From NCBI RefSeq assembly GCF_031769215.1, contig NW_026783133.1, positions 1-64,000 of the forward strand: a stretch of DNA of 64,000 nt. The letters are read 5' to 3'. The stretch comes from Ylistrum balloti. Lineage: Eukaryota. A program made the position numbers. Shown piece after piece: positions 32,901 to 35,099 of this stretch; the stretch's first letter is position 1, and the number at the start of each line of letters is the position of its first letter.

Positions 32901-35099
32901 CAGCGATGTTATCTACACCCAATATGAATGGAACTCTTGGAACTCTAAAGTGCTTCTTGTACATGTGTCTATTACAACGGCCGTAGTAAGAAACTCAGAA
33001 GATGTATTGGATCATAGAATTTTGCCGACATTCGTTTCAAAAAGCTATTGAGTGTTGTATGAATACCAGAGATATACTATACATACAAGTATACGTAAAA
33101 AAACCTGCATAAAGATACAGAGATGGGTTACTGGTCCTCGGATAGAAAATGACAGTACTGAGTGAACACATACATTGATGCGAAAGTATGGCAGTGCCGA
33201 CCAATGAGTAAATGTGCGAAACATTTGTTTGGACCAATAAACAACGTTTACACACAGCGGGGTTGTAGCTGTGGAAACAGGATGATTATCAATGCAACTT
33301 AGTAAACCCACAGAATGAATGTCCGGTATTAATTCCTTAATGTTTTTGGTAAGGAATTCACCCATTATCACTTGATTTGCCTTCCTTCATATAAGTTGGT
33401 ACATATGGTCACGATTCCGAGACATATAGAGTTTTCATGTCTTTACACACTTTCCTCCATTATTTGAATTTGTGGTGATCACTGATAGTTTGTTAGGCTC
33501 TAACTTCAAACTCATCATTAGTTTTCAAAACTTACAGAAACTTTCTACCATATTTGTTTTGGGTACATACGTACTCATTGCAAGATAGTTTGACATGTCC
33601 CGTAATCAACATATATGCATGCAGTTTCCTAATGTATTCCTACCTGGTATTCGTGGGTTGTGATATCAATGTGCTTTTTTGGACCATATACTAGTATCAT
33701 AATTACAGCTGCCTGTATTATATTTTCCATGTTAGTAGAATAATACTTGAAAGCATTCCATAATTTTGAAAAAGAAAAAAAATTCTGGTAAACCATGTCG
33801 ATTAAAAGCAATCAAGCGACTAATATTGTGAACAAGAAAAGCTAAGAATCATATCATCGTTTTCCTAAATGAACCGTGTTCATTCTTGTAATGATGACCT
33901 TATAAATATTCAAAGTCGTCAAGTTTATCCAAAATCATGATATGTAGCATAGATTTCTTAGCTGAAGTGATCCAAATGACGTAAAGTCATTAACGAAGAC
34001 TTGTAAAAGAAATCCTCAGTAGTGTTTTTACATTTGACATTAATTCCCTTTTTATCAAAACGTGACATTATCATTGCATATTCCAACACTATGTAAAATA
34101 AAAAAATTAAATTAGGGAAGAAACTTTACATAAAGGGAGAAATGATCTGTACTCGTAAGGATTATCCTGAATAATTCATAGTCTACACAACAGTGTGAAA
34201 TGTACTCACATCATCTACCATCTATATATGAATATTATAGGGATATCTTAATAAACAAGATCGATGTGTGTTATGGAGGGAAAATATTGAATTGTTTTAT
34301 ATTATAGGTAATATATTATTGCTAACCTTTATTACAGTTTGAATGTTTGAGAGATGCAGCATCCGGCGGTCACATAGATATTGTTAGACTACTACTGGAC
34401 AGGGGAGCTGATCCAAATAAGGTAAGTTTCCTTTTATTCATCTTCTTATACATGTTTTATTTATTTTTCTCAAGACATAAAATGAATTCTCTTGTTTTTC
34501 AATATCTTTTTGTTTGTAAATACATAAACTTCCGTCCCATGTCTTCAATCTCTACATTTTGCCTGCTACATGCTAATAGATTGAGCGTGGTTGGTGCTTA
34601 TTGTTGTTTTCATGCAAAAAAGATACAGGCACTTCCAAACATAACGAAATTAAGTCATCGTTTAACATCATGTAGTCAGATTTATTATCTTCAATCTATT
34701 CCATTACTGGAGAAATTTGTAAGCAGGTGTAAGATTGGTTTTGTAATCAATGTTATAGTTAGCATAAGTCTCTAATGATAAAGCTTAACAACTGTCATCG
34801 TTGTTGTCGTCGATACATTCATGATAAAAAAAAATCATCATACACATACACAGCATACATATGTATTATTATTTTGAAAACACATAGACCACTGGCACCA
34901 CGACAGTATGCCGGTCTTTCACCTGACATGTTAAACTATTTAGATTTCCGGGTTTAGTTTATATAATTTAATGTTGTTAGTCAGAGTCTACGTTATGTTC
35001 ATGTTGCTTTCTTTGTAGAGGTACCACACTGAAGTATCAGCATCTCATGAAACCACGTTCTCTCTCTTTCTCTGTATGCGTATGTCTGTTGGTGAGTGC

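What the first reader, a model, noticed from the sequence alone, without database searches (positions are those of the whole stretch)
34338..34421. All three differences between exons 1 and 2 are nonsynonymous and clustered
Seen: G>E (1649/34342), S>R (1659/34352) and H>D (1660/34353) fall within 12 nt, with no synonymous change. By eye, 1-1644 versus its paralog shows only a handful of differences, and the immediate flanks look identical. All three changes alter charge just before or in helix 1, where exon 3 also differs (SEALAK) while the helix-2 core is conserved. Inference: diversifying selection or a micro-conversion from another cassette. Three sites cannot prove selection.
Basis: partly seen in the sequence, partly recalled or inferred. 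Interest (0 to 1): 0.68.

Follow-up and report, generated by a model that had tools for sequence, protein, structure and literature searches.

The report
Three replacements between twin ankyrin exons
Two almost identical copies of an 84-base ankyrin-repeat exon, 32.7 kb apart in a tandem duplication, differ only by three clustered amino-acid-changing bases at the start of the first helix; the difference is real and mildly unusual, but three sites cannot show selection.

Summary
E1 (1645-1728) and E2 (34338-34421) are 84-nt exons with AG and GT boundaries in phase 0. They differ at exactly three bases (1649 G/A, 1659 T/A, 1660 C/G), giving G/E, S/R and H/D. No other mismatch lies between 639 and 1885.

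Both exons, and a third at 62358-62441, pass the Pfam Ank cutoff. A decayed fourth copy lies at 56187-56263. The changed residues fall at ankyrin positions 4, 7 and 8. In canonical repeats, 4 and 7 are the Thr4/His7 hydrogen-bond pair and 8 is a concave-face specificity position (PMC8415598).

The excess over the flanks is nominal:
- Binomial p is 0.003-0.017 for three independent hits.
- It is 0.024-0.095 if the adjacent pair counts as one tandem mutation.
- The empirical value is 0.009-0.057.

"All nonsynonymous" carries no weight, since P = 0.42 by chance. No donor for a micro-conversion exists in the window.

Background divergence is a strong mosaic, from 0% to 4.2%. The rest of the unit is only 80-93% identical. 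This suggests that gene conversion has homogenised the flanks.

The best reading is real paralogue divergence on the ligand-facing start of helix 1, tolerated or favoured by selection. This is not proven, and the finding is ordinary in kind.

The parts
1645..1728 (+). E1: an 84-nt, phase 0-0 ankyrin-repeat exon of 28 aa, beginning F-G-C-L-S-H. It covers Pfam Ank profile positions 3-30.
   Evidence: for sequence and translation. AG at 1643-1644 and GTAAGT from 1729. Pfam Ank 30.0 bits against a cutoff of 21.1. The PDB search aligns it to ankyrin and DARPin repeats.
34338..34421 (+). E2: the paralogous copy of E1, beginning F-E-C-L-R-D and otherwise identical.
   Evidence: Pfam Ank 28.0 bits against 21.1. 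PDB search.
1649..1660 (+). The 12-nt patch in E1 holding the three differences: 1649 G, 1659 T, 1660 C. These lie in codons 2, 5 and 6, which correspond to ankyrin positions 4, 7 and 8.
   Evidence: Mismatch list. Position mapping (exon residue n corresponds to profile position n+2).
34342..34353 (+). The matching patch in E2: 34342 A, 34352 A, 34353 G.
62358..62441 (+). E3: a third 84-nt, phase 0-0 ankyrin exon, beginning S-E-A-L-A-K. It is an old paralogue of E1/E2.
   Evidence: Pfam Ank 26.9 bits against 21.1. Nucleotide identity to E1/E2 is 58-61%. Synonymous sites are saturated (pS 0.73-0.76) while pN is 0.29-0.31.
56187..56263 (+). A decayed fourth copy of the exon. It has in-frame TAA (56199-56201) and TGA (56250-56252), and the donor region is deleted. 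The acceptor-side flank is still recognisable.
   Evidence: tblastn, sequence, alignment and nhmmer E = 1.2e-05. Identity to E1/E2 is 61-62% and to E3 48%.
1..11744 (.). The high-identity part of tandem unit 1, paralogous to 32696-44042. It runs off the left end of the window.
   Evidence: blastn gives 98.07% over 7546 columns and 98.10% over 3896 columns. Mismatch map.
32696..44042 (.). The high-identity part of tandem unit 2. The offset from unit 1 is about 32.7 kb.

Best explanation
E1 and E2 are paralogous copies of one ankyrin-repeat exon. They lie in a tandem segmental duplication with a period of about 32.7 kb, in an AT-rich, invertebrate-like genome.

Each exon encodes ankyrin positions 3-30. 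That covers helix 1, helix 2 and the GADPN loop, but not the beta-turn. The scaffold-forming part is identical in the two copies.

The only differences are three replacements:
- Positions 4 and 7. In canonical repeats these are the Thr4/His7 hydrogen-bond pair that caps helix 1, and they are partly open to the concave face.
- Position 8. This is a concave-face residue that determines binding specificity.

The result is G4/S7/H8 in E1 and E4/R7/D8 in E2.

The most likely reading is genuine amino-acid divergence of the ligand-facing start of helix 1 between two duplicated repeats. I infer that it has been kept, by tolerance or by selection, while the surrounding DNA stayed or was made nearly identical by gene conversion between the two units. 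Two changes probably arose on E1 (E to G, R to S) and one on E2 (H to D).

Shown: the differences themselves, their positions in the fold, the exon family, and the mosaic identity of the flanks. Inferred: that selection or tolerance maintains the differences, that conversion homogenised the flanks, and the polarity of the changes.
For: (1) The three differences are the only mismatches in about 1.25 kb (639-1885). The 1010-nt mismatch-free run upstream ends exactly at the first of them.

(2) The exon is enriched in mismatches relative to its flanks. P = 0.003-0.017 for three hits. Empirically, 0.9% of non-exon windows outside the divergent block match it, and 0 of 10218 twelve-nt windows outside that block hold 3 or more mismatches.

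(3) The exon family has been under long-term purifying selection, so these are or were real coding exons. Against E3, pS is 0.73-0.76 and pN is 0.29-0.31. The intron flanks of E3 show no apparent similarity to those of E1/E2 in the alignment (not quantified), while the exon does. All three exons pass the Pfam Ank cutoff.

(4) The sites map to positions 4, 7 and 8. Passages of PMC8415598 state that Thr4 hydrogen-bonds His7, that His7 is partly accessible and enriched in contacts, and that position 8 is a concave, unconserved but constrained specificity position.

(5) Radical differences between E1/E2 and E3 fall at the same end of the exon. Helix-2 differences are conservative.

(6) The flanks look homogenised rather than simply young:
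- Mismatch density is strongly over-dispersed (index 7.4, p = 1.5e-23).
- There is a 2414-nt mismatch-free run, alongside an 830-column block at 4.2%.
- The rest of the two units is collinear but only 80-93% identical.

(7) Outgroup states (decayed copy: A, A, C; E3: A, A, A) give a posterior of 0.955 that A is ancestral at each of 1649 and 1659. They give 0.83 that C is ancestral at 1660. That means changes on both copies.

(8) There is a precedent for exons more divergent than conversion-homogenised introns: gibbon L/M opsins (abstract of PMC3213168).
Against: - There are only three sites. P(all nonsynonymous) = 0.42, so no dN/dS signal exists.
- Sites 1659 and 1660 are adjacent and both are transversions, which fits one tandem mutation. 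Such events are almost always nonsynonymous and mimic selection (abstract and passages of 10.1101/165969).
- With the pair counted once, P rises to 0.024-0.095.
- My rough odds of tandem against independent origin run from 0.6 to 4.5, depending on the assumed tandem fraction.
- With the divergent block included, 5.7% of non-exon 84-nt windows are as diverged as the exon.
- The family lacks the TPLH motif, so positions 4 and 7 may simply be unconstrained here.
- The polarity rests on outgroups that are only 48-62% identical.
- There are no transcripts, reads, population data or orthologues. It is not even shown that both copies are spliced into mRNA.
- The finding was picked because it looked striking, which inflates nominal p-values.
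Confidence: 0.4

Rival explanations
1. Neutral chance. After a recent duplication or conversion, two mutational events happened to fall in the exon: one single-base change at 1649 and one tandem double change at 1659-1660. Codons 2, 5 and 6 of this TPLH-less repeat are weakly constrained, so the changes were not removed.
For: - The adjacent transversion pair is typical of a tandem mutation (passages of 10.1101/165969).
- P(2 or more events in the exon) = 0.024-0.095.
- Given one dinucleotide and one single change in 84 nt, a span of 12 nt or less has P = 0.23.
- P(all nonsynonymous) = 0.42-0.56.
- Of non-exon 84-nt windows, 5.7% hold 3 or more mismatches.
- One other adjacent pair exists in non-coding DNA, at 1905-1906.
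Against: - Outside the divergent block, only 0.9% of 84-nt windows and 0 of 10218 twelve-nt windows match the exon.
- Outgroup states favour changes on different copies at 1659 and 1660, with a likelihood ratio of 2.5 against a single event.
- All three hits lie on one structural patch, positions 4, 7 and 8.
Confidence: 0.33
2. Micro gene conversion. A short tract, between 12 nt and about 1.2 kb long, was copied into E1 or E2 from another ankyrin exon located outside this window.
For: - The differences are clustered within 12 nt between identical flanks.
- The locus shows a mosaic of identity that suggests conversion is active.
Against: - No donor lies in the window. tblastn, nhmmer and a 20-nt probe with up to 3 mismatches find only E1, E2, the decayed copy and E3. 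Neither of the last two carries the tract.
- A donor would have to be identical to the recipient over the rest of the tract.
- The polarity inference splits the changes between the two copies.
Confidence: 0.08
3. Artefact. The differences are sequencing or assembly errors, or the two 11.7-kb blocks are diverged haplotypes of one locus wrongly laid out in tandem. In that case E1 and E2 would be alleles.
For: - Identity of 98% with many small indels is in the range of heterozygosity in some invertebrates (recalled).
- No reads are available to check.
Against: - The two units remain collinear for about 29 kb with very different identity (80-98.6%). They also differ by an inversion, a 7.4-kb insertion and an 842-nt against 39-nt indel. 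That is not what a haplotype duplicate looks like.
- There is no N gap in the window.
- The differences are substitutions outside homopolymers.
Confidence: 0.08
4. Selection at the RNA level. The changes lie 5-16 nt inside the acceptor and alter splicing-enhancer content. E2 gains a purine-rich run. The two copies would then be spliced differently, with the protein change a by-product.
For: Rests only on position near the 3' splice site and on the purine-rich state in E2. This is inference.
Against: All three changes are also radical at the protein level, on one structural patch.
Confidence: 0.05

Closest known systems
Primate L/M opsin paralogues (gene conversion plus selection against homogenisation; PMC3213168, abstract read)
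   Same: These are tandem paralogues whose non-coding flanks are more alike than a few functionally important coding sites. Identity is a mosaic.
   Different: The opsin case rests on many individuals, many sites and known tuning residues. This case has one genome, three sites, no known function and zero synonymous differences.
Tandem exon duplication and mutually exclusive exon clusters (criteria in PMC3228551, passages read; PMC9013439, search listing only)
   Same: E1, E2 and E3 have the same length (84 nt), the same splice-site type and phase, and are homologous. These are the three sequence criteria used to predict such clusters.
   Different: The exons are 28-33 kb apart, with transposon-rich DNA between them. 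No flanking constitutive exons or transcripts are known. A length divisible by three would also allow serial inclusion.
Multinucleotide (tandem) mutations mistaken for positive selection (10.1101/165969, abstract and passages read)
   Same: This is an adjacent double change, both transversions, producing two replacements.
   Different: The pair spans a codon boundary rather than sitting within one codon. Outgroup states weakly suggest two separate events.
Canonical ankyrin repeat and DARPin modules (PF00023; PDB entries such as 6mol and 1n11)
   Same: Helix 1 (A-A), G-H, helix 2 and the GADxN loop all align. Pfam scores are above the cutoff.
   Different: There is no TPLH motif; only Leu6 is kept. 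Each exon encodes 28 of the 33 positions and lacks the beta-turn.

Membership tests
Ankyrin repeat (Pfam PF00023) | Matches the Ank profile above the curated cutoff | tested here: met
   E1 30.0, E2 28.0 and E3 26.9 bits against a cutoff of 21.1.
Ankyrin repeat (Pfam PF00023) | TPLH tetrapeptide at positions 4-7, with the Thr4-His7 hydrogen bonds | tested here: not met
   Positions 4-7 read G-C-L-S (E1), E-C-L-R (E2) and E-A-L-A (E3). Only Leu6 is kept (numbering from PMC8415598).
Ankyrin repeat (Pfam PF00023) | Second helix and GADxN-type loop (positions 15-29) | tested here: met
   H-I-D-I-V-R-L-L-L-D-R-G-A-D-P-N aligns to DARPin and ankyrin-1 repeats.
Ankyrin repeat (Pfam PF00023) | A full 33-residue unit including the beta-turn (positions 31-33 and 1-2) | tested here: inconclusive
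   Each exon covers only profile positions 3-30. The missing five residues would have to come from other exons not identified here.
Ankyrin repeat (Pfam PF00023) | Two or more stacked repeats in one polypeptide | not testable with these tools
   No transcript is available.
Mutually exclusive exon cluster from tandem exon duplication | Similar exon length | tested here: met
   84, 84 and 84 nt.
Mutually exclusive exon cluster from tandem exon duplication | Conserved splice-site type and reading frame | tested here: met
   AG acceptor, GTAAGT or GTGAGT donor, and phase 0 at both ends in all three.
Mutually exclusive exon cluster from tandem exon duplication | Sequence homology between the exons | tested here: met
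   E1-E2 96.4%; E1/E2-E3 58-61% nucleotide identity; tblastn E = 3e-07 to 9e-07.
Mutually exclusive exon cluster from tandem exon duplication | Neighbouring exons of one gene with only one included per transcript | not testable with these tools
   No expression data or gene model is available.
Interparalogue micro gene conversion | A donor sequence carrying the transferred tract | tested here: not met
   There is none in the window. The rest of the genome could not be searched.
Positive (diversifying) selection | Replacement rate significantly above the neutral rate (dN above dS or above the intron rate) | tested here: inconclusive
   Nd 3 over 63.5 sites and Sd 0 over 20.5 sites. Against flank rates, P = 0.0007-0.007 for three replacements and 0.013-0.059 for two events. 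Empirically 0.009-0.057.

The most novel reading that the evidence does not exclude
E1, E2 and E3, with one dead copy, form an array of alternative cassette exons spliced in a mutually exclusive way. All are 84 nt, in phase 0, and encode ankyrin positions 3-30 without the beta-turn. On this reading each exon supplies a different version of the same TPLH-less ankyrin repeat. The E1/E2 replacements at positions 4, 7 and 8 would then have been selected to give the isoforms different binding surfaces on an unchanged scaffold. Gene conversion would keep the surrounding introns alike.
Probability: 0.1. Interest if true: 0.55.

Novelty: new member of a known kind. Interest (0 to 1): 0.25.

Why it matters
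If the three replacements are maintained by selection, this locus would be a compact example of a known pattern. A duplicated repeat-protein exon would keep its scaffold while re-tuning a few ligand-facing residues, as conversion erases neutral differences around it. That pattern is known from opsins and other tandem paralogues. As it stands, the case is a plausible but unproven instance in an uncharacterised ankyrin gene. Its main value is as a pointer to a tandem array of equal-length ankyrin exons whose splicing mode is worth checking with transcripts.

Tried and rejected
- **dN/dS between E1 and E2:** undefined, because Sd = 0. It was rejected as a test.
- **Donor search in the window:** tblastn, nhmmer with an exon profile and a 20-nt probe with up to 3 mismatches found nothing beyond the four copies.
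- **Other coding sequence in the window:**
  - Of 146 stop-to-stop ORFs of 62 aa or more, only the 2 containing E1 and E2 hit Ank.
  - 2 gave a weak Phage_integrase hit below the cutoff.
  - The other family hits (Agouti on 2 ORFs, three more on 1 each; E about 0.001-0.009) look like chance.
  - Seven of the longest ORFs (116-176 aa) gave no convincing Pfam hit at E of 1 or less; six gave none and one gave EF-hand_10 at E = 0.065, below cutoff.
- **RNA genes:** Rfam at gathering threshold and a tRNA scan found 0 hits.
- **ESM Atlas with the E1 part only:** this returned generic ankyrin clusters (0.95 and below) and gave no lead to a gene family.
- **PDB sequence search of E1 and E2:** the hits were generic ankyrin and DARPin repeats, with no specific orthologue.
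- **Human origin:** considered and not adopted. CpG observed/expected is 0.73, against about 0.2-0.25 in human DNA (recalled). A probe for the head of the primate Alu element found 0 matches with up to 3 mismatches.
- **Structure prediction and complex prediction:** not run.
- **Not checked because the tools were closed or unsuitable:** relatives in protein databases, metagenome and viral contigs. The genome collection holds only bacteria and archaea, so it was not used.

Full report
**What the window is**

The 64-kb window contains only A, C, G and T, with no N. GC content is about 33% throughout. It has no tRNA genes and no Rfam family at gathering threshold.

CpG observed/expected is 0.73. 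A probe for the head of the primate Alu repeat finds 0 matches with up to 3 mismatches. I do not take the contig for human, whose CpG ratio I recall as about 0.2-0.25. I made no attempt to identify the organism.

Of 146 stop-to-stop ORFs of 62 aa or more, only the 2 that contain E1 and E2 match a credible Pfam family, Ank. Two others give a sub-threshold tyrosine-recombinase hit, and the few remaining hits (Agouti on 2 ORFs, three families on 1 each, E about 0.001-0.009) look like chance. The ankyrin exons are the only recognisable host coding sequence.

**The observation**

E1 (1645-1728) and E2 (34338-34421) are each 84 nt. Each is preceded by a pyrimidine tract and AG, and followed by GTAAGT. 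Each is read in phase 0 as 28 residues.

A global alignment of 1-11900 with 32696-44200 lists mismatches at 1649/34342 (G/A), 1659/34352 (T/A) and 1660/34353 (C/G). There are no others in the exon.

The flanks are nearly identical:
- Upstream, 1-1644 has 3 mismatches and 2 one-base indels in 1642 columns.
- No mismatch lies between 639 and 1648.
- Downstream, the first difference is a 12-nt indel at 1886.

**The exon family**

tblastn and an nhmmer profile find four copies in the window:
- E1 and E2.
- E3 (62358-62441). It is also 84 nt, runs from AG to GTGAGT, and is in phase 0.
- A decayed copy at 56187-56263. It has two in-frame stops and a deleted donor.

E1, E2 and E3 each pass the Pfam Ank cutoff, with 30.0, 28.0 and 26.9 bits against 21.1. 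Exon residue n matches profile position n+2. Each exon therefore encodes positions 3-30 of the 33-residue repeat and lacks the beta-turn. PDB searches of E1 and E2, run one exon at a time, align them to DARPin and ankyrin-1 repeats.

Against E3, synonymous sites are saturated (pS 0.73-0.76) while pN is 0.29-0.31. In the alignment the intron flanks of E3 show no apparent similarity to those of E1/E2, though I did not quantify this; the sensitive blastn, which covered E3's flanks, found no match in the flanks of E1 or E2. The family has therefore been under long-term purifying selection.

A single exon is too short for the structure tool.

**Where the changes sit**

I use the numbering of PMC8415598 (passages read). 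In it, TPLH occupies positions 4-7, helix 1 positions 5-11 and helix 2 positions 15-23.

The differences fall at positions 4, 7 and 8. That paper states three relevant things:
- Thr4 makes three hydrogen bonds to His7.
- His7 is partly accessible on the concave face and enriched in substrate contacts.
- Position 8 is one of four unconserved but constrained concave positions proposed to set binding specificity.

None of the three exons has TPLH; only Leu6 is kept. E2 carries E4/R7/D8 and E1 carries G4/S7/H8. An E4-R7 contact replacing the Thr4-His7 bond is my inference only.

Radical differences between E1/E2 and E3 also concentrate at this end of the exon. Helix-2 differences are conservative: I/L, D/E, R/K.

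**Is it more than chance?**

About 75% of possible single changes in the exon are nonsynonymous, so three out of three has P = 0.42. The lack of synonymous change says nothing.

The test that carries weight is exon against flank.

| Background used | P, three hits | P, adjacent pair as one event |
|---|---|---|
| All 11165 aligned columns, 71 mismatches | 0.017 | 0.095 |
| Divergent block 3372-4226 left out | 0.003 | 0.031 |
| Local region 1-3100 only | 0.003 | 0.024 |

The empirical counts are as follows:
- 626 of 10915 non-exon 84-nt windows (5.7%) hold 3 or more mismatches.
- Outside the divergent block the figure is 93 of 10002 (0.9%).
- Twelve-nt windows with 3 or more mismatches number 10 of 11059, all inside that block, and 0 of 10218 outside it.

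Given three hits in 84 nt, a span of 12 nt or less has P = 0.044. For one dinucleotide plus one single change it is 0.23.

The excess is therefore nominal. It depends on two choices: whether 1659/1660 is one event, and which background is used.

**One event or two at 1659/1660?**

The pair is adjacent and both changes are transversions. This is typical of tandem mutations, which are nearly always nonsynonymous and create false signals of selection (10.1101/165969, abstract and passages).

The outgroups point weakly the other way:
- The decayed copy has A, A, C at the three sites and E3 has A, A, A.
- Under a simple Jukes-Cantor model, A is ancestral at 1649 and at 1659 with a posterior of 0.955 each. 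C is ancestral at 1660 with a posterior of 0.83.
- That implies E to G and R to S on E1, and H to D on E2.

Combining prior tandem fractions of 0.4-3% with this outgroup signal gives odds of tandem against independent origin of 0.6 to 4.5. The question stays open. The outgroups are only 48-62% identical to E1/E2.

**The background is a mosaic**

Mismatch counts per 500 nt range from 0 to 21, with an index of dispersion of 7.4 and p = 1.5e-23. There are mismatch-free runs of 2414, 1315 and 1010 nt. The last of these ends exactly at 1649. An 830-column block at 3372-4226 is 4.2% diverged and has no third copy in the window.

Beyond 11744/44042 the two units stay collinear but are only 80-93% identical. 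They also differ by:
- a 7.4-kb insertion in unit 1;
- an inverted 2-kb segment at 98.6% identity;
- an 842-nt against 39-nt indel that removed the unit-1 counterpart of the decayed exon.

The high-identity block ends in a 64-nt minisatellite.

I infer that the duplication is older than the 98% block suggests, and that gene conversion or a secondary exchange homogenised the first 11.7 kb or more. On that view the three replacements may be differences that conversion has not erased. The same pattern is described for gibbon L/M opsins, where exons are more diverged than introns (PMC3213168, abstract).

One point counts against this view. An exon that had escaped conversion entirely should carry about 1.4-2.5 synonymous differences at 7-12% divergence, and none is seen. 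I calculate P(0) as about 0.08-0.24 from the site count and the identities.

**Micro-conversion**

No sequence in the window other than E2 carries the E2 tract, and none other than E1 carries the E1 tract. E3 shares only the Glu codon. Donors elsewhere in the genome could not be searched. The protein and contig collections that could hold eukaryotic relatives were closed, and the genome collection holds only bacteria and archaea.

**Verdict**

- My best reading, at confidence 0.4, is real divergence of the ligand-facing start of helix 1 between two duplicated ankyrin exons. It is kept by tolerance or selection amid homogenised flanks.
- Neutral chance including one tandem mutation is nearly as likely, at 0.33.
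- Micro-conversion from an unseen donor (0.08), an assembly or haplotype artefact (0.08) and selection on splicing signals (0.05) are minor rivals.

Whether E1, E2 and E3 belong to one transcript in series, are alternative cassettes, or belong to separate gene copies is unknown. They meet the three sequence criteria used to predict mutually exclusive exons (PMC3228551, passages). They are, however, about 30 kb apart, and their length is divisible by three.

The finding is an ordinary kind of paralogue divergence and is of modest interest.

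Noticed in passing
window 56187-56263 (+): A decayed fourth copy of the ankyrin exon, with TAA and TGA in frame and the donor deleted. Its upstream flank (55399-56015) is about 77% identical to 61106-61731, upstream of E3. Its unit-1 counterpart is missing: 39 nt at 27818-27856 stand against 842 nt at 55772-56613.
   Followed up: partly
window 3372-4226 and 35998-36973 region; 5613-8026: Inside the 98% duplicated block, one 830-column stretch is 4.2% diverged (35 mismatches). A 2414-nt stretch a little further on has no mismatch at all. 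No third copy of the diverged stretch is in the window.
   Followed up: partly
window 10555-11329 (-) and 42847-43711 (-): An ORF starting M-P-R-K-R-K is followed on the same strand by an ORF with a sub-threshold tyrosine-recombinase hit (Phage_integrase, 17.8 bits against 27.1). It sits next to a 64-nt minisatellite (11365-11744; 43654-44288). This may be the remnant of a tyrosine-recombinase transposon. The 440-nt stretch 10892-11329 is open on both strands.
   Followed up: partly
window 25040-27107 versus 55404-53336: A 2-kb segment is present in both tandem units at 98.6% identity but in inverted orientation. It overlaps a repeat family that also has copies at 12544-13283, 46554-47292 and 52118-52755.
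   Followed up: no
window 13284-20724: About 7.4 kb is present in unit 1 only. The flanks, 13283 and 20725, correspond to 47292 and 47295 in unit 2. It looks like a clean insertion or deletion.
   Followed up: no
window 29738-32288 (+): Three ORFs of 123-162 aa lie on one strand upstream of E2 and have no Pfam match at E of 1 or less. By eye they resemble a decayed retrotransposon, but this was not shown.
   Followed up: partly
window 2410-2467 and 35092-35167: A (GT)n microsatellite downstream of E1/E2 differs by 18 nt between the two units.
   Followed up: no
window 1886-1906 versus 34578-34587: A 12-nt indel is followed by an adjacent TA/CG double difference. This is the only other adjacent mismatch pair in the duplicated block.
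   Followed up: no
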